A DNA stretch of 64,000 nt from a virus, in IMG/VR virus record IMGVR_UViG_3300027749_000060, positions 45,419-109,418 of that record; one strand, given 5' to 3'. The position numbers and the translations under genes were made by a program. Shown here piece after piece: positions 47,340 through 62,804 of this stretch (position 1 is the stretch's first letter; every line of letters starts with the position of its first letter). The notes below the pieces were generated by a model. That model was not told the DNA's origin. It did no database searches and worked only from the letters and a program-made list of their open reading frames with translations.

Positions 47340-47785
47340 CGGTACTCTGATCGATTTGAGTCTAATTTTGTTTTATTTACATAACGTGCATCAGGATCTG
47401 CTTGTTCTTGCTCAAATGCTTCGGTTAATACATTTCGGCAAATTTCTTGGAACCATAAATCAACAATTTGTTGATCGGTCTTTCCTTTGTATCCTGCACG
47501 AACCAACTTGGCCAAGAAAATCTCATTCCAGTCTAGCTCGAATGCACCATTGCCAACATTATCAGGATCAATTTCTACACCAATAACAGATACCCATGGT
47601 TCACCGGCAGCAGTAGCTTTATCTTTTTCTGACGTTACCGATACTGCTACTACAGGCTCTTTAGGCTTGCTTTTACTACGGCGTGCTTTCGGTGCTTTGG
47701 GTTCTTCGGGGACTACAACCGGGTTGGCCTCAACCGGTGGCGGCATAGATTCTTTTTTTCCAAATACTTTATCAAATAGTCCCAT
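47336..47785 (-). CDS. Hypothetical protein
   Basis: Long ORF in the operon; GAFELDWN motif. Confidence 0.7.
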   Translation of the reverse strand: MGLFDKVFGKKESMPPPVEANPVVVPEEPKAPKARRSKSKPKEPVVAVSVTSEKDKATAAGEPWVSVIGVEIDPDNVGNGAFELDWNEIFLAKLVRAGYKGKTDQQIVDLWFQEICRNVLTEAFEQEQADPDARYVNKTKLDSNRSEYR

Positions 47786-47807
47786 GATTTTAAATCTTTC
47801 TTTATAG

Positions 47808-47903
47808 TTATTCTCTATCTACTCTAGCATCTTCGTTGGAACGATAGCACATATATAATACGCCTATAATATAACCAAGCAAGAAACACAAAAAGTAATT
47901 CAT
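47808..47903 (-). CDS. 31-aa single-pass membrane peptide
   Basis: Not in the ORF track: MNYFLCFLLGYIIGVLYMCYRSNEDARVDRE; starts 1 nt after the upstream stop. Confidence 0.5.
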   Translation of the reverse strand: MNYFLCFLLGYIIGVLYMCYRSNEDARVDRE

Positions 47904-47904
47904 G

Positions 47905-48102
47905 CTAGTTAATGCCAAACCGTTGTTTAATCATGCCAGCTGCTCCCAAACTGGTCATTTGAGTAGTACTACCTTTATCACATATATCAATGCACTCTAA
48001 TAGGATTAGTTTTGCAAAACGCTCTTGTATATCCGGATTAATGTCAGGATAAAAACTTCCACCAGCCATTAATTGTAAATTTTTAAGTAATTCTTTATTC
48101 AT
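47905..48102 (-). CDS. Hypothetical protein
   Basis: Probable start MNKELL just after the queE stop; ERFAKLI..ECI..C pattern. Confidence 0.6.
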   Translation of the reverse strand: MNKELLKNLQLMAGGSFYPDINPDIQERFAKLILLECIDICDKGSTTQMTSLGAAGMIKQRFGIN

Positions 48103-48103
48103 A

Positions 48104-48970
48104 TTAAGTACCCCACTCATTTTTAAATAACGGTACTTGTAGCCTATCACTGTACCGTAGTCCGTGTTTCATTGCCAACAATGCCACATTACGATTGTTT
48201 AATGCATACACACTTTCAACACCGCCCACTGGCATTAGATACACATGCCCTGTAAATCCTGCTGCACGATATTCAGCAATGGCACGTTCTGCATCTTCAA
48301 AATCTTCCTGTGTGGCAATAACAAACTTTAAATATGCTGTGCCGTATTCTTCATATTCACAAACTACTTCGGGTAGAATAGCTTCTTCCCACGGCTCACC
48401 ACTACAAGGCAATTTGGCACTTACTGAGAAGGTAATCTCACGCCAAAAGTCTTGATCATGATGTGATTTCCATGTGTGCAAATACGAAGCAAAGTCTAGA
48501 GCAAGTTTCTGAGTACCATTGGTTTCAAATGTAATTTCTTTCAAGCCAGCCATCTTAGGATGATTTAACAAATCTGGATAAGCACGTTGCCATCCCAGCA
48601 ATGGTTCGCCTCCGGTGATAACCAAATGCTCATCGCGCCACTCACCATGCGGAAGTATTTCCATAATGCGTTCTACAATTGCATCTGTCGTTAACATTGG
48701 ACTTAGATCTTTAAATGCTGGATCCCAGCTGGCATAGCTATCGCAGCCTGTGCTTACTAACGGGAGCTCTTCATACTTTTGAAAAGGGGTAACCAATGAA
48801 TGTGTAGCTGCAATACCAGCAGCCTCCATACTTAATTCTCCGCGTGGCATACCAAACCCTGCACATTTAAAATTACATCCAAATGTACGTAAGAAAACAG
48901 ACGGCACACCCATGTAACGTCCTTCACCTTGGATGCTGTAGAACAGCTCTGCTATTTTAATTTTGCTCAT
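48104..48970 (-). CDS. queE: 7-carboxy-7-deazaguanine synthase (radical SAM)
   Basis: ELFYSIQGEG..GVPSVFLRTFGCN..C...CDS, VITGGEP, ETNG, YLMP, S.RLQ; clustered with queD and folE. Confidence 0.9.
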   Translation of the reverse strand: MSKIKIAELFYSIQGEGRYMGVPSVFLRTFGCNFKCAGFGMPRGELSMEAAGIAATHSLVTPFQKYEELPLVSTGCDSYASWDPAFKDLSPMLTTDAIVERIMEILPHGEWRDEHLVITGGEPLLGWQRAYPDLLNHPKMAGLKEITFETNGTQKLALDFASYLHTWKSHHDQDFWREITFSVSAKLPCSGEPWEEAILPEVVCEYEEYGTAYLKFVIATQEDFEDAERAIAEYRAAGFTGHVYLMPVGGVESVYALNNRNVALLAMKHGLRYSDRLQVPLFKNEWGT

Positions 48971-49235
48971 AAATGTTAGACCATTTCTTAAGTTTTTCAA
49001 TCTTTGCTTTTTTTGCAACTTCTAAGTTGTCTATGGATATTACACCCAACTCAAGCATAATGTCAATCATTGCGAGCATATCGCCCAATTCTTCTTCAAG
49101 ATGCTCTCGATTGGTTTTAGGTTTACCCGGTTTTACATTGTCGGCTCCAAAGCGATTAATTTTACTAACTGCTTGGATTACCTCTGCACATTCTTCTTGA
49201 AGAATATCCATTACTTCTTTTTCTTTAGCATTCAT
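48957..49235 (-). CDS. MazG-like NTP pyrophosphohydrolase
   Basis: EECAEV...LEEELGD.L motif. Confidence 0.8.
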   Translation of the reverse strand: MNAKEKEVMDILQEECAEVIQAVSKINRFGADNVKPGKPKTNREHLEEELGDMLAMIDIMLELGVISIDNLEVAKKAKIEKLKKWSNIYEQN

Positions 49236-49253
49236 TCGCTATGTCTTTCAGTA

Positions 49254-49862
49254 TTAATAATAAGGTCCAAAATCTGGAGTACGTTGATATCTTGCAACAT
49301 ATGCATTCCACATTAGAGAAAAATCGTTGCAGGTAAACAAACTAATTAACTGCTTTTGATTTAAATAGTTTTCAGTATGTGTACCTACTGTTTTGTTTAT
49401 TAGTGCTACATATTGATCTGCTACTGGTAAATCAAATGCTTGCAATAATCTAACTGATTTTTTTAGCGTATCTTGGCTACCTGCTAAGTCGTCAACTAGT
49501 AAAATAGGATTACCGGTTACTCTGCCTTCGGTGAAATTTAATAATCCGTACGATTTACGTGTTTTTTTTAAACTAATCATTGGTGACCCTAATATTTGAG
49601 CCATACCAAATCCTAGTGTAATTCCTGCATCCTCGCATGCCCCAATTTGCACATTAGTATGCGGCAATTTTTCTATTAGAAGTTCTGCTGCTGTAGTTAC
49701 AAACTTAGGATCAAATAAACATCTACGCAAATAGAATTGCCAATAGTAAGAATCATTTGCTGCTTTTGCTGGAATTGCTGCTTGCCCATCTGGCACTCTA
49801 TAAATGCCGCGATGCTCAATTTCGTTTCTTAAATAAATCCATTTTTCGTTACTAATGCTCAT
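49254..49862 (-). CDS. Type I phosphoribosyltransferase-like protein
   Basis: RKSYG loop and PRPP-binding ILLVDDLAGSQDT; ATGA overlap with the queD stop. Confidence 0.75.
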   Translation of the reverse strand: MSISNEKWIYLRNEIEHRGIYRVPDGQAAIPAKAANDSYYWQFYLRRCLFDPKFVTTAAELLIEKLPHTNVQIGACEDAGITLGFGMAQILGSPMISLKKTRKSYGLLNFTEGRVTGNPILLVDDLAGSQDTLKKSVRLLQAFDLPVADQYVALINKTVGTHTENYLNQKQLISLFTCNDFSLMWNAYVARYQRTPDFGPYY

Positions 49863-50356
49863 GCAAATAAGTCCTCGTTCCATTCACGATGTCCTTCACG
49901 GAAAGCCATATTGGCCTGTGTCTCACGCACTTCCACACGATAACACCACAGTCGCTTGGCTTCACCTTCGCCCCAGTAGTCGGGGATATAAACACCATTG
50001 ACATACTTGTACAGCATGTCACTCAGCGACTCGCATCCCATGGCTGGCAGGATAGTCAGTTTGGCCAACTTACGGCGTTCCATTTCTTTGTAGAACTCAA
50101 GTTCTGGATCATCATGTGCCACCAGAGTTGTGTGATCAAATTGGTCTTCTAATATCTTTTTAAGTTCTTTCAATCCGCCGTAGTCAGCAACCCAGTTGCG
50201 AACGTCTAAGTCGTTGGTTCCAAAATAGAACTTCATACTAAACGAGTAACCGTGATTCATATTGCAATGACTATCGGCCCTCCATTGTCTATAAGCGCAA
50301 GGAAATGCGTCTATGTACTCTTTTGTACTAGTGTACTTGTATGTGATTGGGGTCAT
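49859..50356 (-). CDS. queD: 6-carboxy-5,6,7,8-tetrahydropterin synthase
   Basis: C...HGY, WV.DYG.LK, FDHT, CESL, VEVRET. Confidence 0.88.
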   Translation of the reverse strand: MTPITYKYTSTKEYIDAFPCAYRQWRADSHCNMNHGYSFSMKFYFGTNDLDVRNWVADYGGLKELKKILEDQFDHTTLVAHDDPELEFYKEMERRKLAKLTILPAMGCESLSDMLYKYVNGVYIPDYWGEGEAKRLWCYRVEVRETQANMAFREGHREWNEDLFA

Positions 50357-50428
50357 GCTGTTTCTCCTATGTTAATTATAGCATAGGCGGCGGAGTTTGT
50401 AAAGCGGGACGATGCCGATAGACCGCTG
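50357..50428 (-). promoter_or_regulatory. Candidate preQ1-I-like riboswitch in the queD leader
   Basis: AGCGG-UCUAUCGGCAUCGUC-CCGCU-UUACAAAC-UCCGCCG, followed by a CCUAUG/CAUAGG hairpin occluding the AGGAG SD; TAAATA at 50433-50438. Confidence 0.6.
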
Positions 50429-50440
50429 TATGTATTTATC

Positions 50441-50884
50441 TTATTGTTCGGATACGTTTAGTATTTGAGCTGCTTGAACATCATCTTCTAAAATATTACC
50501 ATTCTCATCTACTAGACAGATTTTAATTGGATTACTAATACGCATATAGGAACCATCAATAATCCATTGATCGTCAATTCCGTTAACTCCGTCTCTTCCC
50601 CAATTAATTCCAATACTATCTGTTTCTTCTTGAGTAAAATCACCGTAGAATTTGTAGAATGTTTGAAATTGATTTTTGTACACACATGTATCCATTGGAA
50701 AATGCATATTGTCGTCGTTTATTTCTTGCTGTGTAATTGGATTGTCTAAACTTCTAGTTCCGTATCCGGATACATATGTATCAGTTACGCTCCAACCGCG
50801 ATCATTGTTTACAGACTTAATATTATAATAAACACTAATGCTACCGTTGTCGTATGTTGGATACACTCTGTATGAATTTGTCAT
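50441..50884 (-). CDS. Hypothetical protein
   Basis: AAGGA SD; TAAATA at 50907-50912. Confidence 0.65.
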   Translation of the reverse strand: MTNSYRVYPTYDNGSISVYYNIKSVNNDRGWSVTDTYVSGYGTRSLDNPITQQEINDDNMHFPMDTCVYKNQFQTFYKFYGDFTQEETDSIGINWGRDGVNGIDDQWIIDGSYMRISNPIKICLVDENGNILEDDVQAAQILNVSEQ

Positions 50885-50922
50885 AATTATTTTTGTCCTT
50901 GCTTTATATTTAGTACTTAAAA

Positions 50923-51393
50923 TTATAAGAAATCGTCACTGTCGTAATAATCACTAATACCATATTCCTCATCCAGTTCAGGGGGTATAGTATCGACTAA
51001 CTCTTCTTTTGATAAATGACTGTAGTCGTATTGTTGATCGTCACCGTTATCCCAAATACCACAAAATCCTATTCCTGGTTCGTAGTAAGTTGCATATACA
51101 CTAAATCCTTGATCTAGTAATGATTTATATGCCATTAACGGTGGTGCCCATGCACTAGTAAAACTAAGTGTAATTTTATTTGGAGTTACTTCTAAGAAGC
51201 CGTCGTTTTCTCCAATGTCCCATTTAGTACCCCAGTTTTCAATATTCCATGTATACCAATTTTCGTTATGTTCTGTTGGTCTTGGAACTAAGGTGTTTAA
51301 AAATTCACCTTTGGCAAAGGCATTACCAGCACGTTCAATTACTTCCGGATCGTTGTGTTCTAAAATTAATTTGTTATCACACCAATTTGGCAC
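50923..51393 (-). CDS. DUF1281/YubB ferredoxin-like domain protein
   Basis: MPNWC.N, WY.WN..NWGTKWD, F.SAW.PP, YYEPG. Confidence 0.8.
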   Translation of the reverse strand: MPNWCDNKLILEHNDPEVIERAGNAFAKGEFLNTLVPRPTEHNENWYTWNIENWGTKWDIGENDGFLEVTPNKITLSFTSAWAPPLMAYKSLLDQGFSVYATYYEPGIGFCGIWDNGDDQQYDYSHLSKEELVDTIPPELDEEYGISDYYDSDDFL

Positions 51394-51404
51394 AATGGTT
51401 CTCC

Positions 51405-51617
51405 TTAGGCAGCAGATTTTTTACGAGATGTCTTAACAGGGGCTTCTACACTTAGTATAGCAGCCTTCACTTCATTAAGCAAGGCTTCGTCATCCCATTT
51501 TAATTCAGTGCGCCCATTCGGAAAAGTTGTAACAGTTAAATGATTACCTTTAACTATCTTTACTACATCCAACCCAGTAGCATTGACTACTTCGGATTTC
51601 TTTTTTTTAGTTGCCAT
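51405..51617 (-). CDS. Hypothetical protein
   Basis: Packed operon. Confidence 0.65.
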   Translation of the reverse strand: MATKKKKSEVVNATGLDVVKIVKGNHLTVTTFPNGRTELKWDDEALLNEVKAAILSVEAPVKTSRKKSAA

Positions 51618-52023
51618 CTTGTGCTTCCTCTATTTCTTCTATCTTTAACAAATCATTAAACCAGTATTCCGAACGATCAAAAATCCATCCAGATTCTTCC
51701 AATGATTTATAAATGTCTATTCCAATTAAATTTTTAATTTTAATTTGTTCTTCACTATTGACTTGTGATGGAAACAACCAAGCAGCCACTGATACACTAG
51801 TTTTAGGAACAAGCGTTAACAAACTCCAACTATATTCGGTACCTTTTGTTAATTCAATTCCGTCAATGTTTTCTAAATTCATATCAGGCATGGTATGGTT
51901 CCAGCATACAAATTCTGAATATTCAAATGTCTCACGCCGTGAAATAGTCAAACTGCCTTTATACCAATATTGCTGCTCAATTATTTTGTTTTTGTATTGA
52001 GGTGATATTTTCCATTTTTTCAT
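51607..52023 (-). CDS. Hypothetical protein
   Basis: ATGA overlap with the folE stop. Confidence 0.65.
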   Translation of the reverse strand: MKKWKISPQYKNKIIEQQYWYKGSLTISRRETFEYSEFVCWNHTMPDMNLENIDGIELTKGTEYSWSLLTLVPKTSVSVAAWLFPSQVNSEEQIKIKNLIGIDIYKSLEESGWIFDRSEYWFNDLLKIEEIEEAQDGN

Positions 52024-52730
52024 CGCGGTGCAAACTCCTGCTGTAGTTTGATGTTATCAAAAAACTCCTTCTTGGTGCTTTGATCTGTTTGAAATGCACC
52101 TCGAAGCACAGTAGTTTGAGTTAGACTGCTATGTGCCATGATACCACGATTCTCACAGCATCCATGTGTAGCTTGGATATAAACACCTAGGTCTGTTGCT
52201 CCTGTAGCTTTTTGGATTTCTCTAGCAATGTCATTGGCCAGTTCTTCCTGCAAAGTACCACGACGAGCGCACCAATGAGCAATACGAGTGTACTTAGACA
52301 AACCAATGAGCTTTTCTGCGGCGATAATCCCAATATAAGCGACACCAGATACAGGCTGGTGATGATGGCTACACATACTGCGTAGTTCACTTCTAACCAC
52401 AAGCATGCCTTCGTATCTATCTGCTGAATCATTTGGAAAAGCCGTTGCATTCGGTGCTGGTTCATATCTACCTTCCATAATTTCATTAAAATACATTTTA
52501 GCTAATCGACGTGCAGTACCTTTACTATTAGGATCTGTTTCACGATCAATTAATAATCTATCCAGTACAGTTTCAAATGCTAGTGTAGCTTCGTCAATTA
52601 AAATGTCTTTATCCAATCCGCTGATATATTCGCTAATATTATCGCCTGCCCAAAAGCGTTTGTTATCGCGTTTCATCTTAGAGCGAATATGATCGCCGAG
52701 ATAAATTTCTTTGTTGTCTGTTTCACTCAT
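52020..52730 (-). CDS. folE: GTP cyclohydrolase I
   Basis: TARRLAKMY, SMCSHH, IGLSK..RI, LQE.L, HGC...RG. Confidence 0.95.
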   Translation of the reverse strand: MSETDNKEIYLGDHIRSKMKRDNKRFWAGDNISEYISGLDKDILIDEATLAFETVLDRLLIDRETDPNSKGTARRLAKMYFNEIMEGRYEPAPNATAFPNDSADRYEGMLVVRSELRSMCSHHHQPVSGVAYIGIIAAEKLIGLSKYTRIAHWCARRGTLQEELANDIAREIQKATGATDLGVYIQATHGCCENRGIMAHSSLTQTTVLRGAFQTDQSTKKEFFDNIKLQQEFAPR

Positions 52731-52737
52731 TTTATTT

Positions 52738-52767
52738 TTCTCCGATGTTAAGGCAGAGGATTGCCAT
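52738..52767 (-). promoter_or_regulatory. Candidate SD-sequestering mini-pseudoknot in the folE leader
   Basis: GGCA-AUCCUC-UGCC-UUAACAUC-GGAG; loop UCC is complementary to GGA of the SD. Confidence 0.45.
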
Positions 52768-52773
52768 GTTTGT

Positions 52774-52803
52774 ATTATATATTATTTAGACCAACAGAGT
52801 CAA
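52774..52803 (-). promoter_or_regulatory. Nested sigma70 and late promoter for folE
   Basis: TTGACT-18 nt-TATAAT with TAAATA (52783-52788) in the spacer. Confidence 0.65.
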
Positions 52804-52806
52804 TAA

Positions 52807-53775
52807 TTATGATAGGGTTTTTTGCCATTGCCATGCAGTTGCTACAATATTTTCGATAGTACTATTGCGTGGCCGCCAAGAGGTTAGTTGTTTAAATTTT
52901 ACGCTGTCGGCTACAAGTTTATCTGGATCACCCTCACGGCGTGGCCCAATATCTACATTGATTGTATCTCCTACAGCATAACTACATGCATTAATAATTT
53001 CTTTATTACTATAGCCATGGCCAGTTCCTAAGTTGTATGCTTCGAACCTTCCGGGATCGAAACTTTCAGCCAAACACACAGATTCTAAATGTGCCTGCGC
53101 GATATCAGTTACATGCAAATAATCGCGTATGCAAGTGCCATCTGCGGTATCATAATCATTTCCGTTTAATACAAATGATTTCTTATTTTGATATGCACCT
53201 AATATCCGAGGAATGATATGTGTAGCATCAGCAGTATGACCTAATGCTCCTCCGGCATCCGCTCCGCAGGCATTAAAATAACGTAATGCAATACCTTTGT
53301 ATCCGTGTGCATTGCAATGATCTGCAATCACTTGTTCGCACATGAGTTTACTCCACCCATATGGATTCATTGGTTCTTGTTTAGAAGATTCACTAATAGG
53401 ATTAGAACAGTAATTACCGTAGGTAGCAGCACTACTACTGAAAACAATTTTACCTGACCAACCGTGCAATTGATCTAACAAAATGTTAGTTTTTGACACA
53501 TTATTGTTATAATATTCACCAGGATTGGTCATGCTAGGACCTACTAGACTTGTACCTGCACAATGTATAATAGCATCTGCATTATTTATTTTTGCAGCAG
53601 TTGCAGCAACATCGGTGTAGTCGGCTACTAGCATATTGTCCATATAATGTGCAGCCTTGGGTATAGTTATAGTGCGATCAACACCGATAACATAATACCC
53701 TGCTTCTTTAAAAGTCTTGGCGGTATGACTGCCAATAAATCCAAATGCACCAGTAATTACAACTCTTTTACTCAT
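52807..53775 (-). CDS. galE: UDP-glucose 4-epimerase
   Basis: GAFGFIG, FSSSAATYG, YGWSK (YxxxK), RYFNACGA, DGTCIRDYLHV.D.A.AH. Confidence 0.92.
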   Translation of the reverse strand: MSKRVVITGAFGFIGSHTAKTFKEAGYYVIGVDRTITIPKAAHYMDNMLVADYTDVAATAAKINNADAIIHCAGTSLVGPSMTNPGEYYNNNVSKTNILLDQLHGWSGKIVFSSSAATYGNYCSNPISESSKQEPMNPYGWSKLMCEQVIADHCNAHGYKGIALRYFNACGADAGGALGHTADATHIIPRILGAYQNKKSFVLNGNDYDTADGTCIRDYLHVTDIAQAHLESVCLAESFDPGRFEAYNLGTGHGYSNKEIINACSYAVGDTINVDIGPRREGDPDKLVADSVKFKQLTSWRPRNSTIENIVATAWQWQKTLS

Positions 53776-53776
53776 A

Positions 53777-54955
53777 TTAATATTTTGTTTCGTGTGTGTG
53801 TTTCCGATAGTCTGTGCTCATACGCAGCCATTTCTCGCCTGTACCTTGCAAGATATCAACCACGCGATCAATGGTACCATCATTCCAGTCACTGATCTCG
53901 CCTTGGCGTTCGTGTGCATAACCCAGTAGATCTTCCAGCTTGGTCAATGCATCATCGATGCTCCAAGGGATATAAAGTCTTGTAGGATCGTTAGCAAAGG
54001 TTTCGGGGAAACTGCGATAAGCAGGGTAAAGTACATTACAACCAAGAGTGTCCGCTTCTGATACAGTGTTTGAGACCCAATCTTGTAAAGCGCAATTAAA
54101 AAGCACACGAGTATCATTAAGGAGAGCATAGTAGTCGTTCTTTTCCAAGTCCTCATAGATTGTCAGCAGGCCACGTGCTGCAAGATTGTGTGTACGAGCC
54201 ATGTAGCTGTCGTTGTTGCTCTTTAGTTTTGCACCACTGAAGATACAGAACTCTACTGGATGTGCCGGAAAACGTGCATGCCAGGCTTCGATAAGATCCA
54301 TGTAAAAGTCTGGTTGCTTTTCTTGATCCCAACGTGCAGCAAAGCCCACACGCATGGTGCGATCACCAAAGTCCTTTAGTTCGCCAGGCACACGGCTACG
54401 TACTTCTGCCTTGCCAAATGCCAAGCCTGAAATATTGTAGATAGGACTTTTCCAGCCTGCAACCTTCATGTGCATTACCATTTCTTCATTGGTGGCCAGT
54501 ACTCCGTCGACAAAGCTGTCCACCATTTTTTCATAGTGTCCCATGAAATCTTGCATACCCCATACATGAACAAAATCGTCAGGATCAATGGACTGAGCAA
54601 GACAGCGAACATAAATCCTAGGCCGGTGACTGTTATCGATCTGTTTAAGAATATACGGGAGGCTTTCGATTCCAGGCTGAAACATGTCTTCAAAGTAAAT
54701 AACATCTTCATTGTTGAGTTCTCCTGCCTTCATCATTCTAATTAGATTCATCAACTGGCTCATACCAAAGTATGTGCGGCCGTGTGCATCCAGTACTTGT
54801 CCAGTTACAATGGCTTGATCGTTGCTGAGTGTTTCGCCGGGTACTATAACATAGTCAATGCCGCGTTGTTCAAAAACAGCACGATTCCACTCTTGCAGTT
54901 GTAGAGTGTATCTGGCCTTGTAAGGTTCAAGACCCATGTAATAAAGTTTACGCAT
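53777..54955 (-). CDS. GT-B fold (GT4-like) glycosyltransferase
   Basis: FAARWDQEKQP, QDWVSNTVSEA (D/E-x7-E), YP..RSFPE; start MRKLYY after an AAGGA SD. Confidence 0.8.
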   Translation of the reverse strand: MRKLYYMGLEPYKARYTLQLQEWNRAVFEQRGIDYVIVPGETLSNDQAIVTGQVLDAHGRTYFGMSQLMNLIRMMKAGELNNEDVIYFEDMFQPGIESLPYILKQIDNSHRPRIYVRCLAQSIDPDDFVHVWGMQDFMGHYEKMVDSFVDGVLATNEEMVMHMKVAGWKSPIYNISGLAFGKAEVRSRVPGELKDFGDRTMRVGFAARWDQEKQPDFYMDLIEAWHARFPAHPVEFCIFSGAKLKSNNDSYMARTHNLAARGLLTIYEDLEKNDYYALLNDTRVLFNCALQDWVSNTVSEADTLGCNVLYPAYRSFPETFANDPTRLYIPWSIDDALTKLEDLLGYAHERQGEISDWNDGTIDRVVDILQGTGEKWLRMSTDYRKHTHETKY

Positions 54956-54966
54956 GATATTCCTTA

Positions 54967-55209
54967 TTAACGAGCATCGTTTCCATAACGACGTCCTTGA
55001 CGTATCATCCATCCCCAGTTGTCACGAGGCCAGCGTCCATTCTGGAAACGTATATAGTCTCCAAATGGGCTATACTCATTGCCCAGATGGGCTTCGTTAA
55101 ACGGAAAACCATAATCCGCACAAAATTTGCAATACTTATCGAGGTCGTCAAAAATACGACTCACTTCTGGTTTCATGACAAAATATTTTTTAAGTTGATG
55201 ATTAGACAT
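54967..55209 (-). CDS. Hypothetical protein in the modification operon
   Basis: AAGGA SD before MSNHQL. Confidence 0.65.
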   Translation of the reverse strand: MSNHQLKKYFVMKPEVSRIFDDLDKYCKFCADYGFPFNEAHLGNEYSPFGDYIRFQNGRWPRDNWGWMIRQGRRYGNDAR

Positions 55210-55229
55210 AATATAATCCTTTAATAAAG

Positions 55230-55679
55230 TTAAACAGAAATTTGTTTGGCACTGTAGCGATGGTAAAAAATATTGCAACCGTTCTCTCCATCTTCGGAGA
55301 CTTCGATTTCTATATCTCTATCTGGGTATCGAGTAGCAATAACTTGATATAGTTCATCACTAATCATTTCGCAGCTTTTATGATCTAGTTGTAGTGAATC
55401 TTTGTACAAGTTTTCAATCCAACGTTTAAATTGAATAAATTCAATATCACGATCGGCATGAAATACTTGGATAGAAACTTTAAAGTGAAATATATGACGA
55501 TGCGGAAATCCTAGGAAACTCACATCATATTCATCACCGGTTGCCAGTGCTGGATCGGTTGCTGCTGCTGGATACATATGGATACCTTCTTTACGGAAGG
55601 TGATCCAAATTAATCTCTTTGCTCGGTCGGCAATACGATTTCTTTTTTCTGCTAGTGCAGTTTCGGTTTGTGTAAACAT
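55230..55679 (-). CDS. Second T-fold (QueD-like) protein, DpdL-like
   Basis: EGIH.YP, LGFPHRHIF (LxxxHRHxF), DRDIEFI, SCEM, EVSEDGENG. Confidence 0.7.
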   Translation of the reverse strand: MFTQTETALAEKRNRIADRAKRLIWITFRKEGIHMYPAAATDPALATGDEYDVSFLGFPHRHIFHFKVSIQVFHADRDIEFIQFKRWIENLYKDSLQLDHKSCEMISDELYQVIATRYPDRDIEIEVSEDGENGCNIFYHRYSAKQISV

Positions 55680-55711
55680 CTTTATTAAATAAAGTTAGTT
55701 GATAGATATGC

Positions 55712-55740
55712 AGTATACACTGCGGCGACAACAAAGTCAA
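55712..55740 (-). promoter_or_regulatory. sigma70-like promoter for the T-fold/GT/galE operon
   Basis: TTGACT-17 nt-TATACT. Confidence 0.75.
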
Positions 55741-55750
55741 TGACTTTGAA

Positions 55751-56257
55751 TTATAATACAGAGTCTTTGGTGTATTCCCGCCAGCTGGTAAAGTTGGCAG
55801 GGTTGGTTAAGGCGTGTAGGCTATGGCACCATACGCCGGGATTGGTGGCATCAAAATCTTTGTCATCAATTTTGACAGTGGCATTATATCCCAGCTGTTG
55901 CAAGTAGGGTATTTTGACTGATATCACAGGGATAAAGTTGTGGTACTCAGTAAGGCCGCACTCTAGTAGGCCTTCTACAGATCGAACATCGATATCCAAT
56001 GAGCACAGGTAACCTGCTCTCAGGAACGGCGTAATCATATCTTGCCACTGGTCCCAAGTGTTAGCATCGTTAACATCAGGATTGGGAAAACTCATGTTAG
56101 CACCAAAGTAGATATGCTCGCATCCGTTGATGTGTTGGGCAATATCATCTTCGGGTTGTACTCCGACTACAAACAGGGTTTTCTTACCGTATGCAGGTGT
56201 GCGCTCAATTTCAATGCCGTAGAAGAAACTTACTTCTTCGTGACCTTCTCTAATCAT
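55751..56257 (-). CDS. Hypothetical protein translationally coupled to the TGT-like gene
   Basis: ATGA overlap at 56254-56257. Confidence 0.75.
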   Translation of the reverse strand: MIREGHEEVSFFYGIEIERTPAYGKKTLFVVGVQPEDDIAQHINGCEHIYFGANMSFPNPDVNDANTWDQWQDMITPFLRAGYLCSLDIDVRSVEGLLECGLTEYHNFIPVISVKIPYLQQLGYNATVKIDDKDFDATNPGVWCHSLHALTNPANFTSWREYTKDSVL

Positions 56258-57885
56258 GATATTTCCTTTTCTTCAAACAAATCATTAAACTTTGTGCGAC
56301 CGTTAAGGGCCTTCTTGCCAATGAATCCGCGACCACCAATAATATCCATCCAATAGTTACGGTAGTGTTCTATGATAGCCTCTGATTCTTCTTTGACATC
56401 TGTAGCAAAGATAGCATCTACTATGTCTTTGAACATTTCATAATCGCCATTGTTTTTACGCATCATACCAGGATACTCGCCTGCATCGTATGTTCTATTA
56501 GCACGTTGTACAGCCTCAATGTGGGTCCATACATTATGTCCCATCAATAATGCATAACTAAAACTATCCCAGCTAGTTTTACCTTCTTTGCCATTCTTAT
56601 TTACATCACCCGGCTTGTAATAGCAAATGTCTTTCATTTTAAGCAGACTGCTAATGGGACTTTCGTCAAAGTGGCTAACCCACTTTTCTTGTACAGCAGT
56701 AACACCATATGGGCGCATATCAGTTGCATACTTCTTATCATCTACAATAGGGCTCATACGATAACACCATTTACCTTCGTGCGGCAAATCAATCTCATGA
56801 TATACTTGTCCATTGGCAGTAGCTAAGAATGGGCTGGCGCAATCAAAGCTGATAGTAAAGGCTGGATTGACGTACTTTCTGACAGCTCTTTGTATGTCAG
56901 TTAACAATACTGCCCACTCTAATTTGCTAGTACCCAAGAAGTGCATCCAATCATGTACACCTTCTTGCAGCAAGTTGTCGTGGCGTAATGCTACTAATCT
57001 TTTTAGTATAAGATGCACATCACACATATTCTGTCCGCCCATTGCCCAACCATCAAAGTGTTTATCTGGATAGACTGTAGGATCACAAAATACTTTCATA
57101 GCCTGATACCAATCCTCGGCACTGGTATGATTATCACCTTGCAATACATTTAAGTATTTTGCACCACCGTTGTTCTTGCCACGGCGATGACGCATAAAGT
57201 ATTCGTTATTGTATTTTGTTGCTGCAACCGCCTCTGGCAAGGTAGTAATACCGCAGGCATTGCTGGCTTTCTTGTCATGAATAACCCAAGTTGGAATATC
57301 TAAGATCATTCCATAGTCAGAAATACTATCTAACCAAGTAAGCACACCGCCGCGTTTCTTTTGTGCTGCATCAATTTTATCTTGATACAGTTTGGCGTGA
57401 TTAATGTTAACAGTCTTTGGTACACCTTTTTTCATTACAGGATTGCCAGCTTTGTCTAGTACAGGCCGAGCTTCGATACCCAATGCCTGCATAGCTGCCA
57501 TTTTCTGTGTAACTTCTGGGCCATTAGGGTCACGCCATTCGCCTTCCCACAAGCCCTTGGCAATCTGAAATCCGCCCGAATCACCTAACATAAAAGTGCC
57601 AGGCTTGCGATTACGAACCATGTCCTCACTGGCGTCTGGTTTATTCAGATCTAAGTTGGCATGCCCTGCACTATAAAGACTCCAGCGATAAGGAAACAGA
57701 CCTTTTTGATCATCTAACCAATTCATCTGCTCCATGTCTGTTAAGCCTTGAGGAAAACGTGCAGGATCTACGTAGTCGTTATTAACACGTTGTTTCCCCA
57801 CAAAAGTAGCATAGAATCCCGATATAGCTGGTAAGAATACAGCGTAGTCGTTTTGTTTAGCGGTTAAATTATCCTGCGACATCAT
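56254..57885 (-). CDS. dpdA: TGT-fold guanine transglycosylase, DpdA-like (probably DNA-acting)
   Basis: DSGGFQ, MILDIP, VLQG, GWAMGG, HFLG and SFD motifs of the TGT barrel. The DNA target is inferred from phage context with folE/queD/queE. Confidence 0.72.
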   Translation of the reverse strand: MMSQDNLTAKQNDYAVFLPAISGFYATFVGKQRVNNDYVDPARFPQGLTDMEQMNWLDDQKGLFPYRWSLYSAGHANLDLNKPDASEDMVRNRKPGTFMLGDSGGFQIAKGLWEGEWRDPNGPEVTQKMAAMQALGIEARPVLDKAGNPVMKKGVPKTVNINHAKLYQDKIDAAQKKRGGVLTWLDSISDYGMILDIPTWVIHDKKASNACGITTLPEAVAATKYNNEYFMRHRRGKNNGGAKYLNVLQGDNHTSAEDWYQAMKVFCDPTVYPDKHFDGWAMGGQNMCDVHLILKRLVALRHDNLLQEGVHDWMHFLGTSKLEWAVLLTDIQRAVRKYVNPAFTISFDCASPFLATANGQVYHEIDLPHEGKWCYRMSPIVDDKKYATDMRPYGVTAVQEKWVSHFDESPISSLLKMKDICYYKPGDVNKNGKEGKTSWDSFSYALLMGHNVWTHIEAVQRANRTYDAGEYPGMMRKNNGDYEMFKDIVDAIFATDVKEESEAIIEHYRNYWMDIIGGRGFIGKKALNGRTKFNDLFEEKEIS

Positions 57886-58234
57886 AATCTCTTGTTAATG
57901 CCAATAGTAAATCTAATTTACTTTTAGCTTGTTCCACTTCTTCGATGGCACCTACTAGCTGTGGATACTGATCTTTAAGCAATTCTATATCACGTTCTTG
58001 CTGCATCTTGTACTGGGCCCAGTCTATGGCCTCTTGTGCTTGATTGCTGAGTCCCACGGTAGCATAGCTGGTGTTCATGACAATCCAATTTGCGCCATTA
58101 AACACCTCCATGTTTGTACCGTTAATACGAAGCATACCTTGTGCGGGATTACTTGAATTGGTACTAATATAAGGCACAGAGGTATCGCCCCCTGTAACTA
58201 TTACATGCCGCTCGCCCATGAGACCTTTTATCAT
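57869..58234 (-). CDS. Hypothetical protein
   Basis: Overlaps both neighbours. Confidence 0.7.
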   Translation of the reverse strand: MIKGLMGERHVIVTGGDTSVPYISTNSSNPAQGMLRINGTNMEVFNGANWIVMNTSYATVGLSNQAQEAIDWAQYKMQQERDIELLKDQYPQLVGAIEEVEQAKSKLDLLLALTRDYDVAG

Positions 58235-58962
58235 TTTGTCATTGCAGGTATGGTGTAATTATAAACAGCAATGCCAGAATCAACTGTGATCTGTGCTGCA
58301 CCTTCATCGCTAAAACGCATAGTTTTATCGCCCGGCAAACCTAAAATGTTTTTAACAACATTAACAGGCCATGGCCAACCTCTTGTTAAATTGCCTGAGA
58401 TATTAGTTTCAAATACAAAGCTACCTGCATGGGTACTGTTGTCACCAAAATAGAATTTAAGATCCTTACCTTCTACTTTAGCAATGAATGTTGTTTCTTC
58501 GCTATTAGCCTGGCTTTGAAATACAAATCGTTGTATACCTAGCACAGTAGGAGCAACATCGACACCCCATTTAACATCTTTAAATTTCATTGTTTTGATC
58601 TTGTCGTTAACAATAGATGCACCCATAAAGCGATAGTCGTTTTTAAAGTCTCCTACTTTATTTTCAAAGTGGATGCCAGATGGTACTGCGGCACCATTAA
58701 CAGTTTGTCTGCTAATACTAATTTGTGCATCTTCCTTGTATTCAGGAATATTTAAAATAGTGTTTAGTTTGCCCAAGTTAGGCATTCCAAACTGTCCAAT
58801 GAACTCTGCCACTGGACCATGAAAGGTAGCATCAAGAATAACACTTTTGTCTTCTGCAATAGCGTTAACAAGAGTTTCTTCTTCTGTACCTGTAATTTTA
58901 ATTAAGTCAATCACACCCAGGTTGTGTGTGTGCTTGACCATATCTAATAGTGCGTCTTTCAT
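58231..58962 (-). CDS. Putative sliding clamp (gp45-like)
   Basis: 243 aa, two-fold beta/alpha pattern, FGMPNL..L..IL, position directly after DNA polymerase. Confidence 0.55.
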   Translation of the reverse strand: MKDALLDMVKHTHNLGVIDLIKITGTEEETLVNAIAEDKSVILDATFHGPVAEFIGQFGMPNLGKLNTILNIPEYKEDAQISISRQTVNGAAVPSGIHFENKVGDFKNDYRFMGASIVNDKIKTMKFKDVKWGVDVAPTVLGIQRFVFQSQANSEETTFIAKVEGKDLKFYFGDNSTHAGSFVFETNISGNLTRGWPWPVNVVKNILGLPGDKTMRFSDEGAAQITVDSGIAVYNYTIPAMTK

Positions 58963-58985
58963 AGTGGTTCCTTATAATAGTTGAT

Positions 58986-59014
58986 ATAATACATGATATA
59001 TTTAGATTTTGCAA
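58986..59014 (-). promoter_or_regulatory. Nested sigma70 and late promoter for the clamp-dpdA operon
   Basis: TTGCAA-17 nt-TATTAT with TAAATA (58999-59004) in the spacer. Confidence 0.6.
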
Positions 59015-59028
59015 ACGTTTCGATGAAA

Positions 59029-61689: not shown

Positions 61690-61976
61690 TGTGTAAGCAT
61701 CCTTGTTAATCCTATACTATCAATTGTAATCAGCAGTGAGTAGTTTGCCAGCATGCCAAAAGATCTACGGCTATAACTAGCCCACCCATACATACAACAC
61801 TGAATAATAAAAACAGGATAAATGTAAATAAGAGGCGGATTAGGTACAGTGAGTGCCATAGTGATACTGCATCCAATTGAAATAACCCAAGCCGCAGCTT
61901 CAACGATAAAACGAACAGGGTTAGTTTTATAGTCGTTTTTGATCCACGTAAAAACATTACGGATACTGTCGTTCAA
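61686..61976 (-). CDS. Small membrane protein (about 3 TM segments)
   Basis: Hydrophobic segments; overlaps both neighbours. Confidence 0.7.
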   Translation of the reverse strand: MNDSIRNVFTWIKNDYKTNPVRFIVEAAAWVISIGCSITMALTVPNPPLIYIYPVFIIQCCMYGWASYSRRSFGMLANYSLLITIDSIGLTRMLTQ

Positions 61977-62233
61977 AGTGTCTTGCCTACAGTTTCCAAT
62001 ATAGTATTTAGATCGTCGTGATCGCGATTGGTCTCGCCTAGTTTACTCTTGCTGGCTATCTTAATTGCTTTTTTAAGAATAGCAGGCTTAACTTCAAGTT
62101 CTTCAGCAATTGCTTTGATGGTTTCGTTGAGCCCTGTGCTTAGTGCTTCAACTTCGGCCATTACTTGCATGCCTTCATTGATAATTTGTGTTAGTTTAAT
62201 TTTTTGATCGCCGCTGAACATACGTGCTGTCAT
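61973..62233 (-). CDS. Small dsDNA-binding protein (T4 DsbA/GapR-like)
   Basis: Helical; IKAIAEELEVKPAILKKAIKIA pattern. Confidence 0.6.
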   Translation of the reverse strand: MTARMFSGDQKIKLTQIINEGMQVMAEVEALSTGLNETIKAIAEELEVKPAILKKAIKIASKSKLGETNRDHDDLNTILETVGKTL

Positions 62234-62261
62234 AAAGATCCTTTATAGTGAATTATAGTTA

Positions 62262-62290
62262 ATTATAGATTACTTATTTCACAAAAGCAA
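62262..62290 (-). promoter_or_regulatory. sigma70-like promoter for the DNA polymerase operon
   Basis: TTGCTT-17 nt-TATAAT. Confidence 0.75.
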
Positions 62291-62307
62291 GTGTTTAGAT
62301 AAAAAAA

Positions 62308-62405
62308 GTGCTCACTTTCGAGATTCCCGGTAGCGAATCGGGCCGTCCCGCGCCAGCAGCCGGCGCACACTTAATATAACGCAAAGGTCCTAAGATAGTG
62401 TGTTC
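62308..62405 (-). ncRNA. Candidate structured non-coding RNA of unknown class
   Basis: GC-rich intergenic island with three stems, followed by U7 on the minus strand. Confidence 0.55.
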
Positions 62406-62408
62406 GTA

Positions 62409-62804
62409 TTAACCGTTAATGTAATTTGGATGCGCTTTATTAAACTTGCGCATAATAATGCCAGCTACGCTATTAGCTTCGTTTTCTTCATCACTGCCAG
62501 TTTCGCCGCTGTTGGCATTAAGTTGATCTTCTTGGTGTTGTTTAAAATGAACAAGTTCGTGTGCCAGTGTTCTACAAATATCAATTGGATGTCTGCGATC
62601 TATACCCAAACTAATGGTCATATCTGATGGGGAAAAACTACCAAATGTAGGCTGCTCTTGTTGATTCATTGATTTGAAAATGTTAATTTCAGGTAAGTTA
62701 GTTAGTCCTAGTTCTTCCATGGCCAATGGAAGTAAATCCTTTATTGCACTGTATACAACTTGGTAGGATTCCTTTGATTCAACTAGGAATTCAACAGCTC
62801 TCAT
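62409..62804 (-). CDS. HEXXH zinc-metallopeptidase-like protein, probably virion-packaged
   Basis: RTLAHELVH...ENEAN; start MRAVEFLVE overlaps the upstream stop (TAATG). Confidence 0.75.
   Translation of the reverse strand: MRAVEFLVESKESYQVVYSAIKDLLPLAMEELGLTNLPEINIFKSMNQQEQPTFGSFSPSDMTISLGIDRRHPIDICRTLAHELVHFKQHQEDQLNANSGETGSDEENEANSVAGIIMRKFNKAHPNYING

What the first reader, a model, noticed from the sequence alone, without database searches (positions are those of the whole stretch)
48104..57885. 7-deazaguanine DNA-modification cluster with no queC but with a glycosyltransferase and GalE: candidate sugar-modified deazaguanine
Seen: on one strand, directly downstream of DNA polymerase and the clamp, lie a TGT-fold enzyme (DSGGFQ), a coupled unknown, a second T-fold protein, an unknown, a GT-B glycosyltransferase, galE, folE, queD, a PRTase, MazG and queE. 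No queC, queF or gat-queC is in the window. Established: FolE-QueD-QueE convert GTP to CDG; QueC is required for preQ0; phage DpdA exchanges G in DNA for deazaguanines; GalE supplies UDP-Gal or UDP-GalNAc. Inference: the pathway stops at CDG, or its T-fold-processed product, and the base is then glycosylated, giving a bulky anti-restriction/anti-CRISPR base. I know of glycosylated queuosine in animal tRNA and glucosyl-hmC in T-even DNA, but not of a glycosylated deazaguanine in DNA.
Basis: partly seen in the sequence, partly recalled or inferred. Interest (0 to 1): 0.92.

Follow-up and report, generated by a model that had tools for sequence, protein, structure and literature searches.

The report
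Sugar transferase inside phage deazaguanine genes
An uncultured giant phage carries the known QueC-less gene set for replacing guanine in its DNA with 7-deazaguanine, and a phage-only sugar-transferring enzyme with its own sugar-donor epimerase sits inside that set, which predicts a sugar-bearing purine in DNA that I found in no paper and that can be tested on phages already in culture.

Summary
On the minus strand, after PolB and the clamp, lie a TGT-fold enzyme (543 aa), a conserved unknown (168 aa), a DpdL homologue with the exact LxxxHRHxF signature, a GT-B/GT4 glycosyltransferase (true length about 392 aa), GalE, FolE, QueD, a PRTase, MazG and QueE. No QueC was found in the 109 kb record, in an 86%-complete relative, or in five complete genomes of cultured phages with the same module.

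The core is the known DpdL-type pathway (Cui, Hutinet et al. 2023), which gives 2'-deoxy-7-deazaguanosine in Cellulophaga phage phiST.

- **What is new:** the glycosyltransferase. Among 50,697 phage genomes, its full-length relatives occur only in DpdL-encoding phages, always next to DpdL or the TGT-like gene although the gene order differs.
- **In metagenomes:** in 160 contigs it keeps this place, mostly with a GalE-type gene beside it.
- **Pairing:** it goes with long TGT-like enzymes, never with the short DpdA3 of phiST.
- **Limits:** GalE is specific to this clade and common in unrelated phages. No route to a hydroxylated pyrimidine was found.

That the sugar ends up on the deazapurine in DNA is inference, about one in three, because 7-deazaguanine offers no obvious acceptor group. 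The scan has reported this module many times before on other DNA.

The parts
56254..57885 (-). Long TGT-fold enzyme (543 aa), candidate DNA-guanine transglycosylase (DpdA-like)
   Evidence: AF2 pLDDT 93. VIA Z 19.7 against TGT 2ash, about 300 residues aligned. The Foldseek top 50 are all TGT. D102, S103, G105, D196, H315 and D348 are invariant in 64 relatives. 32% identical to PA5oct EST35_0316. The family profile reaches the ACP17 424-aa protein at E 1.4e-8.
55751..56257 (-). Conserved unknown (168 aa) whose start overlaps the end of the TGT-like gene
   Evidence: Found in 43/80 and 68/80 related loci and in ACP17 (ASD50402, 31%). 21 columns are invariant. No Pfam, PDB or Atlas match.
55230..55679 (-). 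DpdL homologue (QueD paralogue, proposed CDG decarboxylase)
   Evidence: Motif LGFPHRHIF = LxxxHRHxF. 57% identical to ACP17 ASD50405 and 36-37% to phiST CGPG_00067. phrog_17812.
54967..55278 (-). Small ORF (103 aa) between DpdL and the GT, function unknown
   Evidence: tblastn relatives at the same place in 76/80 close loci and 16/80 divergent loci. No family match.
53777..54955 (-). GT-B (GT4-like) glycosyltransferase, 392 aa from the conserved start MRKLYYMGLEP
   Evidence: AF2 pLDDT 87. VIA Z 26.0 (6kih) and Z 24.3 (BshA). Foldseek top hits are MshA, BshA and glycogen synthase. The family profile hits PDB group-1 GTs at E 5e-5. 18 of 23 family members hit PF00534. R208, E212, K213, P215 and E300 are invariant.
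52807..53775 (-). UDP-glucose 4-epimerase GalE
   Evidence: TIGR01179, 310 bits, above its cut-off of 262. The gene after the GT in eight divergent loci also has GalE as its best hit.
52020..52730 (-). GTP cyclohydrolase I (FolE)
   Evidence: PF01227, E 4.8e-39.
50441..52023 (-). Four small ORFs (138, 70, 156 and 147 aa), poorly conserved, probably not part of the pathway
   Evidence: Seen in few related loci (g138 12, g70 19, g156 1, g147 1 of 80). Only g156 matches PHROGs, in families of unknown function.
49859..50356 (-). QueD (6-carboxytetrahydropterin synthase family)
   Evidence: PF01242, E 6.9e-15. 50% identical to ACP17 QueD.
49254..49883 (-). Type I phosphoribosyltransferase-like protein with an atypical PRPP loop
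   Evidence: PF00156, 18 bits, below the cut-off, and weak NCBIfam PRTase hits. The loop LLVDDLAGSQDT is visible. It is not conserved in close relatives. A different PRTase-like gene sits in the BUCT-ZZ01 cluster, in PA5oct and in 31/80 divergent loci.
48957..49235 (-). MazG-type nucleotide pyrophosphohydrolase
   Evidence: PF03819, E 4.5e-7. Present in about 10 of 80 loci in each set.
48104..48970 (-). QueE (7-carboxy-7-deazaguanine synthase), likely start at M17 of the long ORF
   Evidence: The best NCBIfam hits are QueE models, below their cut-offs. 47% identical to the annotated QueE of BUCT-ZZ01. Translation.

Best explanation
The cluster is a QueC-less, DpdL-type module for replacing guanine in phage DNA with a 7-deazaguanine.

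**Proposed pathway**
1. FolE, QueD and QueE turn GTP into 7-carboxy-7-deazaguanine (established chemistry of these families).
2. DpdL removes the carboxyl group (proposed in the literature, never shown).
3. The long TGT-fold enzyme exchanges guanine in DNA for the deazapurine (inferred from its fold, its conserved aspartates and its place beside the polymerase).
4. A virus-specific GT4-type glycosyltransferase belongs to this module. Using UDP-galactose or UDP-GalNAc supplied by the adjacent GalE, it most likely puts a hexose on the deazapurine after insertion into DNA, giving a bulky major-groove adduct that blocks restriction and other nucleases.

The PRTase and MazG are optional extras. The PRTase most simply recycles the released guanine to GMP, or makes a deazapurine nucleotide. 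MazG cleans the nucleotide pool.

**My odds**

| Claim | Odds |
|---|---|
| Deazaguanine DNA modification | about 0.85 |
| The GT is a working part of that pathway | about 0.75 |
| The final DNA base carries a sugar | about 0.35 |
For: **Core pathway**
- FolE, QueD and QueE are present.
- DpdL carries LxxxHRHxF, the signature given in PMC10516641.
- The TGT fold scores Z about 19-20, with an invariant DSGGFQ aspartate and two further invariant aspartates.
- No QueC was found in the record, in an 86%-complete relative or in the complete genomes of PA5oct, ACP17, Phosso, BUDD and BUCT-ZZ01.
- PA5oct DNA resists enzymes whose sites contain G (PMC12191111).

**GT**
- It has a GT-B/GT4 fold, with conserved Arg, Lys and Glu positions that I read as the NDP-sugar site (that reading is my inference). 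18 of 23 members hit PF00534.
- Full-length relatives occur only in DpdL-encoding phages, 18 of 18 records in about six lineages. They lie next to DpdL or the TGT-like gene in differing gene orders.
- The GT keeps the same place in 160 IMG/VR loci.
- Only 7 contigs, all from MAGs, turned up in one representative genome for each of 185,579 species.

**GalE and a second GT**
- A GalE-type gene follows the GT in 76 of 80 divergent loci, and GalE is its best hit in all 8 tested.
- A subclade adds a second GT directly upstream of GalE, as does BUCT-ZZ01.

**No pyrimidine acceptor**
- The window's record has ThyX, and relatives have a true ThyA instead.
- No TET/JBP and no C5-methyltransferase were found.
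Against: - 7-deazaguanine and CDG have no hydroxyl of the kind that known DNA glycosyltransferases use. The acceptor atom is therefore unknown.
- phiST reaches plain dDG with DpdL and no GT, so the GT is not needed for deazaguanine insertion as such.
- The fold does not tell a DNA acceptor from a small-molecule one. T4 AGT (Z 21.1), a pterin glucosyltransferase (Z 22.6) and many small-molecule GT4 enzymes score alike.
- GalE is absent beside the GT in PA5oct, ACP17 and BUDD and is common in unrelated phages.
- DpdL activity has never been shown; expressing it with DpdA in E. coli gave no dDG.
- The window's record covers only about a third of a genome.
Confidence: 0.4

Rival explanations
1. 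The DNA carries plain 2'-deoxy-7-deazaguanosine (or dCDG), as in phiST. The GT and GalE act on something other than the final DNA base. Candidates are a pathway intermediate (for instance a glycosyl ester that activates the CDG carboxylate in place of QueC's ATP chemistry), a protein, or a host glycan.
For: - phiST makes dDG without any GT.
- No acceptor hydroxyl exists on DG.
- The closest folds include many small-molecule GT4 enzymes such as MshA, BshA and SenB.
- GalE-type genes are widespread phage auxiliary genes.
Against: - The GT family is confined to DpdL phages and always adjoins DpdL or the TGT-like gene, in different gene orders. A host-glycan or protein target would not explain this.
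- A phage-borne donor-supply gene (GalE) and a second GT in some lineages suggest bulk glycan building rather than catalytic activation of an intermediate.
Confidence: 0.3
2. Nucleotide-level (pre-replicative) route. The PRTase converts the deazapurine base to a nucleotide, as ToyH and TubE do in toyocamycin and tubercidin synthesis. MazG removes dGTP, and the polymerase incorporates the analogue. The TGT-like enzyme and the GT act on nucleotides rather than on DNA.
For: - A PRTase and a MazG lie inside the cluster.
- PRTase-like genes recur in BUCT-ZZ01, PA5oct and 31 of 80 divergent loci.
- DpdA3-type systems give complete replacement of G, which is easier to reach before replication.
- The precedent of ToyH and TubE rests on my own knowledge.
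Against: - This window's PRTase is not conserved even in close relatives, and MazG is present in only about one locus in eight.
- The TGT fold with its catalytic aspartates is conserved throughout.
- The literature holds that a DpdA is found in all phages with these bases and that insertion is post-replicative.
- A guanine-salvage role explains the PRTase equally well.
Confidence: 0.12
3. The GT and GalE glycosylate a different DNA base, a hydroxylated or hydroxymethylated pyrimidine as in the T-even phages or RB69, and merely sit near the deazaguanine genes.
For: - All known DNA glycosylation is on 5hmC, 5hmU or 5hoC (PMC13326640).
- T4 AGT shares the fold at Z 21.1.
Against: - The window's record has ThyX. 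Relatives replace it with a ThyA that passes the thymidylate synthase equivalog models.
- No TET/JBP or C5-methyltransferase is present, even in an 86%-complete relative.
- The GT family is never found in phages without DpdL.
Confidence: 0.06
4. FolE, a PTPS-type T-fold enzyme and the GT make a soluble pterin glycoside, as cyanobacteria do with BGluT, unrelated to DNA.
For: - The pterin glucosyltransferase of Synechococcus PCC 7942 (5zer) matches the GT model at Z 22.6.
- BUCT-ZZ01 infects that very host.
- FolE and PTPS-family genes are present.
Against: - 5zer does not stand out from dozens of other GT4 enzymes.
- QueE and a TGT-fold enzyme are conserved with the GT throughout.
- The module lies inside the replication genes.
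- No sepiapterin-reductase-type gene was identified, and the SDR present is a GalE above the equivalog cut-off.
Confidence: 0.04

Closest known systems
DpdL/DpdA3 system of Cellulophaga phage phiST, giving 2'-deoxy-7-deazaguanosine (Cui, Hutinet et al., NAR 2023, PMC10516641)
   Same: FolE, QueD, QueE, a DpdL with LxxxHRHxF, a MazG-type gene, no QueC, a TGT-superfamily enzyme, and a location beside the polymerase genes.
   Different: - The transglycosylase here is a long (543 aa) TGT-fold protein with no BLASTP similarity to the 259-aa phiST DpdA3.
- A GT4-type glycosyltransferase, GalE, a conserved 168-aa unknown and a PRTase are added.
- The DNA product is unknown.
Pseudomonas jumbo phage PA5oct (Wroclawvirus) replication and modification region
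   Same: - It has the same order: PolB, clamp, long TGT-like (32% identity), GT homologue, DpdL (60%), QueE, RNase H (52%).
- Its DNA is reported to resist G-containing restriction sites (PMC12191111).
   Different: - It has no full GalE, only a 172-aa fragment resembling the GalE N-terminus.
- Its GT is only 22% identical.
- The chemical nature of its modified G has not been reported in the papers I could search.
T4 alpha- and beta-glucosyltransferases, and the arabinosyltransferases of RB69 and DLP3
   Same: - These are GT-B enzymes that decorate a modified base in phage DNA from a UDP-sugar.
- RB69 also encodes its own sugar-nucleotide supply (PMC13326640).
- T4 AGT matches the GT model at Z 21.1.
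   Different: - Those act on a hydroxyl of 5hmC or 5hoC made by a ThyA homologue. No such route is found here.
- There is no sequence similarity.
Queuosine glycosylation in animal tRNA (QTMAN/GTDC1 and QTGAL)
   Same: A GT4-type enzyme puts a hexose on a 7-deazaguanine derivative in a nucleic acid (my own knowledge).
   Different: - The acceptor there is a cyclopentenediol hydroxyl, which cannot be made without QueC and the later Q-pathway steps.
- None of 23 family members matched the QTMAN_N domain (PF12038) at E up to 1.

Membership tests
DpdL-type (QueC-less) phage 7-deazaguanine DNA modification system | FolE, QueD and QueE present | tested here: met
   PF01227 and PF01242 pass their cut-offs. 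For QueE the best hits are QueE models, but they fall below the cut-offs.
DpdL-type (QueC-less) phage 7-deazaguanine DNA modification system | DpdL: a QueD paralogue with LxxxHRHxF in place of CxxxHGH | tested here: met
   LGFPHRHIF is present. Homology to the DpdL of phiST and ACP17.
DpdL-type (QueC-less) phage 7-deazaguanine DNA modification system | No QueC, QueF or Gat-QueC | tested here: met
   - QueC (PF06508) is absent from the 109 kb record.
- In an 86%-complete relative (G001), two PP-loop ORFs reach the Pfam QueC cut-off only through their C-terminal ~55 residues (22.1 and 27.6 bits against 22). One has no NCBIfam hit and the other scores 19.7 against 150 on the QueC equivalog, so I do not read them as QueC.
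- In five complete genomes of GT-bearing relatives, BUDD gives only a 19-bit hit below the cut-off.
- QueF was not searched.
- The window's record is only 31% complete.
DpdL-type (QueC-less) phage 7-deazaguanine DNA modification system | A DpdA-family transglycosylase | tested here: inconclusive
   - The TGT fold and invariant aspartates are met.
- There is no BLASTP similarity to phiST DpdA3.
- The only link is a profile hit to the long ACP17 protein, E 1.4e-8.
- Action on DNA was not tested.
DpdL-type (QueC-less) phage 7-deazaguanine DNA modification system | dDG detected in virion DNA | not testable with these tools
   Needs LC-MS/MS of nucleosides.
GT-B fold, GT4-like glycosyltransferases (Pfam Glycos_transf_1) | Two-Rossmann GT-B fold | tested here: met
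   VIA Z 26.0 (6kih), with 345 residues aligned. Foldseek TM 0.6-0.68 to MshA, BshA and glycogen synthase.
GT-B fold, GT4-like glycosyltransferases (Pfam Glycos_transf_1) | Match to PF00534 above the gathering score | tested here: inconclusive
   - The window's own protein matches only PF13524, at E 0.11.
- An 80%-identical relative passes PF00534 at 27.8 bits against 26.4.
- 18 of 23 family members hit it, best E 8e-13.
GT-B fold, GT4-like glycosyltransferases (Pfam Glycos_transf_1) | Conserved NDP-sugar-binding Arg/Lys and Glu | tested here: met
   R208, K213 and E300 are invariant in 23 sequences that go down to 20% identity. Assigning them to the donor site is my inference from GT4 enzymes.
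UDP-glucose 4-epimerase GalE | Score above the TIGR01179 equivalog cut-off | tested here: met
   310.2 bits against 262.3.
QTMAN/GTDC1 queuosine-tRNA mannosyltransferase family | QTMAN_N (PF12038) N-terminal domain | tested here: inconclusive
   No match in any of 23 family members at E up to 1. No QTMAN entry appeared among the listed fold matches.
Phage DNA glucosyltransferases acting on 5hmC or 5hoC | A co-encoded route to a hydroxylated pyrimidine (ThyA-type hydroxymethylase or hydroxylase, or MTase plus TET) | tested here: not met
   The window's record has ThyX, relatives have a true ThyA, and no TET/JBP or C5-MTase is present. The window's record is incomplete.

The most novel reading that the evidence does not exclude
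These phages, which are very abundant in metagenomes, and cultured phages such as PA5oct, ACP17, BUDD, Phosso and BUCT-ZZ01, carry a glycosylated 7-deazaguanine in their DNA. This would be the first sugar-bearing purine in any genome. DpdL leaves C7 unsubstituted and no hydroxyl is available, so the link could even be a C-glycoside to the electron-rich pyrrole carbon, a chemistry unknown for GT4 enzymes. Lineages with a second GT would build a disaccharide.
Probability: 0.3. Interest if true: 0.93.

Novelty: new variant of a known kind. Interest (0 to 1): 0.78.

Why it matters
- All DNA glycosylation known so far is on pyrimidines. A sugar on a deazapurine would be a new class of DNA base, with consequences for restriction, CRISPR, the glycosylase- and END-type defences that sense modified G, and sequencing chemistry.
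- Both the TGT-like family and the GT family are very widespread in metagenomes: each search hit its ceiling of 8,000 scored candidates, nearly all significant, and the contigs reach about 370 kb. The product would therefore be a common natural polymer, not a curiosity.
- It may also explain why DpdL plus DpdA from ACP17 gave no product in E. coli (PMC10516641): a conserved partner was left out.
- The question can be tested directly, because at least five GT-bearing phages are in culture and phiST DNA offers a natural all-dDG substrate.

Tried and rejected
- **Phage collection, DNA level:** megablast of the region found nothing.
- **TGT-like protein:** sequence searches of Pfam, PHROGs, NCBIfam and PDB gave nothing. 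Only the fold identified it.
- **The 168-aa unknown:** no match in Pfam (alone or as 20 members), in a PDB profile search or in the ESM Atlas.
- **Complex prediction, TGT-like enzyme with the GT:** no answer, score 0.19 against a mark of 0.32. This is evidence neither for nor against binding.
- **The look-up of encoding contigs:** I used the search for related loci and annotated phage records instead.
PF12038 was not matched.
- **preQ1 riboswitch noted at 50357-50428:** Rfam gave no match at E up to 1 over 47500-62500.
- **QueC-like ORFs in relative G001:** these are two PP-loop proteins next to radical SAM genes (one of them a twitch-domain type). They reach the Pfam QueC cut-off only through a C-terminal piece of about 55 residues (22.1 and 27.6 bits). 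On the QueC equivalog one has no hit and the other scores 19.7 against 150, so I rejected them as QueC.
- **Promoter and terminator scans:** no more sites than in shuffled sequence.
- **Supplementary tables of PMC10516641:** not held, so I could not confirm which ACP17 protein the authors call DpdA3.

Full report
**Where the window lies.** The window is bases 45419-109418 of a 109 kb IMG/VR virus record that CheckV rates 31% complete. Related contigs reach 300-370 kb, so this is a fragment of an uncultured jumbo phage. Its replication genes resemble those of Pseudomonas phage PA5oct: PolB 42-47%, RNase H 52% and clamp 32% identity, in the same order.

**The observation.** All genes of the finding lie on the minus strand.
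- Clear family matches are FolE (PF01227, E 5e-39), GalE (TIGR01179, 310 bits against a cut-off of 262), QueD (PTPS, E 7e-15) and MazG.
- For QueE the best hits are QueE models, but they fall below their cut-offs. It is 47% identical to the annotated QueE of Synechococcus phage BUCT-ZZ01. It probably starts at 48970.
- The PRTase is a weak match with an atypical PRPP loop.
- Four small ORFs between folE and queD are hardly conserved in relatives. I do not count them as part of the pathway.

**The TGT-fold enzyme.**
- The 543-aa protein matches nothing by sequence in Pfam, PHROGs, NCBIfam or the PDB.
- An exhaustive search found 877 clusters of relatives at 50% identity.
- In 64 diverse members, D102, S103 and G105 of GDSGGFQ are invariant, as are D196, H315 and D348.
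- The AlphaFold model is confident (pLDDT 93, pTM 0.91).
- The Foldseek top 50 are all tRNA-guanine transglycosylases. VIA-align gives Z 18-20 over about 300 residues for bacterial, eukaryotic and archaeal TGTs.
- It has no BLASTP similarity to the 259-aa DpdA3 of phiST. Its family profile does reach the 424-aa protein of the ACP17 cluster at E 1.4e-8, across the DSGG region.
- I therefore call it a TGT-superfamily enzyme and a candidate DNA transglycosylase, not a proven DpdA3.

**DpdL and the known system.**
- The 149-aa T-fold protein is 57% identical to ACP17 ASD50405 and 36-37% to phiST CGPG_00067. It carries LGFPHRHIF.
- That is the LxxxHRHxF signature by which Cui, Hutinet and colleagues defined DpdL, the proposed CDG decarboxylase (PMC10516641).
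- The same paper showed that phiST, with FolE, QueD, QueE, DpdL and DpdA3 but no QueC, replaces all dG with 2'-deoxy-7-deazaguanosine.
- QueC is absent from the window's record.
- It is also absent from the complete genomes of PA5oct, ACP17, Phosso and BUCT-ZZ01. BUDD has only a hit below the cut-off.
- An 86%-complete relative has two PP-loop ORFs that reach the Pfam QueC cut-off only through a C-terminal piece of about 55 residues (22.1 and 27.6 bits against 22). One has no NCBIfam hit and the other scores 19.7 against 150 on the QueC equivalog. I do not read them as QueC.
- The core of the finding is thus a member of a known kind.

**The glycosyltransferase.**
- Relatives begin at MRKLYYMGLEP, so the gene most likely starts at 54955 and encodes 392 aa.
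- The window's own sequence misses the Pfam thresholds, but an 80%-identical relative passes PF00534, and 18 of 23 family members hit it.
- A family profile finds group-1 glycosyltransferases in the PDB at E 5e-5.
- The model (pLDDT 87) is a GT-B fold closest to GT4 enzymes: Z 26.0 to a sucrose-phosphate synthase and Z 24.3 to BshA.
- R208, E212, K213, P215 and E300 are invariant down to 20% identity. I read these as the NDP-sugar site. An N-terminal LEPxExRYT motif is also invariant.
- It looks like an active enzyme. The fold does not reveal the acceptor: T4 alpha-glucosyltransferase (Z 21.1), a pterin glucosyltransferase (Z 22.6) and many small-molecule GT4 enzymes score alike.

**Linkage of the GT to the deazaguanine genes.** This is the main result.

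| Source | Result |
|---|---|
| 50,697 phage genomes | Full-length relatives of the GT occur only in the PA5oct group (11 records), BUDD and X1, BCSR5, ACP17 (two records), Phosso and BUCT-ZZ01. Every one also encodes DpdL. |
| Gene order in those phages | PA5oct: TGT-like, GT, DpdL. ACP17: long TGT-like, GT, DpdL. BUDD: GT, TGT, DpdL. BCSR5: DpdL, four genes, GT, then a 446-aa unknown. Phosso and BUCT-ZZ01: DpdL, GT. In all but BCSR5 the GT adjoins DpdL or the TGT-like gene although the order differs; in BCSR5 it lies about 2.7 kb from DpdL. |
| DpdL phages without the GT | phiST and its kin, MA9V-3, Ahp1 and D479 have the short DpdA3 type. No GT lies near DpdL in Bakedbeans or RHph_I1_18 either. 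GT-bearing phages with an identified transglycosylase (all but BCSR5) have a long TGT-like enzyme of one of two related families. |
| 80 close IMG/VR loci | The order PolB, clamp, TGT-like, (168 aa), DpdL, 103 aa, GT recurs. |
| 80 divergent IMG/VR loci | Same order, with the TGT-like protein down to 31% identity. |
| 185,579 species genomes | Only seven contigs, all from MAGs, encode the family. |

**GalE.**
- A GalE-type gene follows the GT directly in 76 of the 80 divergent loci.
- In all eight I tested, GalE is the best NCBIfam hit. Four score above the cut-off, and the shorter forms score below it.
- A subclade that lacks the 168-aa gene instead has a second GT (456 aa, 43% identical to BUCT-ZZ01 UTS52035) directly upstream of GalE.
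- GalE-type genes occur in 117 unrelated phage records. They are missing beside the GT in PA5oct, ACP17 and BUDD. BUCT-ZZ01 has one about 43 kb from its cluster.
- GalE is therefore a lineage-specific donor supply, not a defining part of the module.

**Other acceptors.**
- The window's record encodes ThyX.
- Relatives have instead a ThyA that passes the thymidylate synthase equivalog models. This looks like ordinary replacement of one dTMP synthase by another.
- No TET/JBP and no C5-methyltransferase is present, even in the 86%-complete relative.
- I found no route to a hydroxylated pyrimidine. The window's record is incomplete, so this is not final.

**What remains inference.**
- That the TGT-like enzyme acts on DNA.
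- That DpdL decarboxylates CDG.
- That the GT modifies the inserted base.

The chemical difficulty is real: neither CDG nor 7-deazaguanine offers the hydroxyl that known DNA glycosyltransferases use. The open options are a so far unrecognised hydroxylated side chain, a glycosyl ester of CDG, an unusual C- or N-glycoside, or a role on a free intermediate. I put the GT's membership of the pathway at about 0.75 and a glycosylated deazapurine in virion DNA at about 0.3-0.35.

The PRTase and MazG vary between relatives. They fit either salvage of the released guanine or a nucleotide-level branch.

**Literature and earlier notes.**
- In the searchable library I found no report of a glycosylated deazaguanine in DNA. 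The DpdL paper does not mention a glycosyltransferase.
- PA5oct DNA is reported to resist restriction at G-containing sites, but the base was not identified.
- Earlier notes of this scan describe the same module on many other contigs and reach the same reading. They are not independent evidence.
- One note proposed a QTMAN-like N-domain. I could not reproduce this for the family here.

Noticed in passing
window about 37882-38478 (G000:C1:83300-83896), minus strand: The phage encodes ThyX (PF02511, 150 bits). Relatives G001 and G002 lack it and encode a canonical ThyA instead (354 bits). This looks like replacement of one thymidylate synthase type by the other within one phage clade.
   Followed up: partly
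L068:16317-17684 (also L082, L040, L053, L058, L076 and others): A subclade that lacks the 168-aa gene carries a second glycosyltransferase (456 aa, 43% identical to BUCT-ZZ01 UTS52035) directly upstream of GalE. This suggests a two-sugar version of the module.
   Followed up: partly
L086:1489-2157 and L087:1492-2127 (relative G001, about 283-297 kb): Two PP-loop ATPases, each next to a radical SAM gene (one of them a twitch-domain type). They reach the Pfam QueC cut-off only through a C-terminal piece of about 55 residues (22.1 and 27.6 bits against 22). On the QueC equivalog one has no hit and the other scores 19.7 against 150. Their function is unknown.
   Followed up: partly
L002:11416-11934 and L002:11946-12380 (PA5oct EST35_0320 and EST35_0321): Inside its cluster PA5oct has a 172-aa protein that resembles only the N-terminal third of GalE (33% identity). 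It also has a 144-aa protein related to the PRTase of BUCT-ZZ01 (27%, E 4e-10).
   Followed up: no
window 50357-50428: Another first-stage note proposes a preQ1-I-like riboswitch ahead of queD. Rfam gave no match at E up to 1 anywhere in 47500-62500. A strong sigma-70-like site (TTTACA, 17 nt, TATAAT, with a TG before the second hexamer) lies at 50403-50375 on the minus strand.
   Followed up: partly
L099, L154, L163, L165 and L002:1605-6831: PolB matches come in two or three separate pieces in several relatives. In PA5oct the gene is split by a homing endonuclease. The PolB of this window (59029-61689) is in one piece.
   Followed up: no
L190-L196: The only cellular-genome hits to the GT family are contigs of MAGs labelled Haliscomenobacter, Chitinophagales, Rickettsiales, Phycisphaerae and others. 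These are probably phage contigs binned with bacteria, and at best a weak hint to hosts.
   Followed up: no
L004:8380-8874 (BUDD), also BCSR5 and L169-L171: The BUDD-type clusters add a PAPS-reductase-like PP-loop protein and two further conserved unknowns (215 and 143 aa) between FolE and the GT. This hints at a different tailoring step in that lineage.
   Followed up: no
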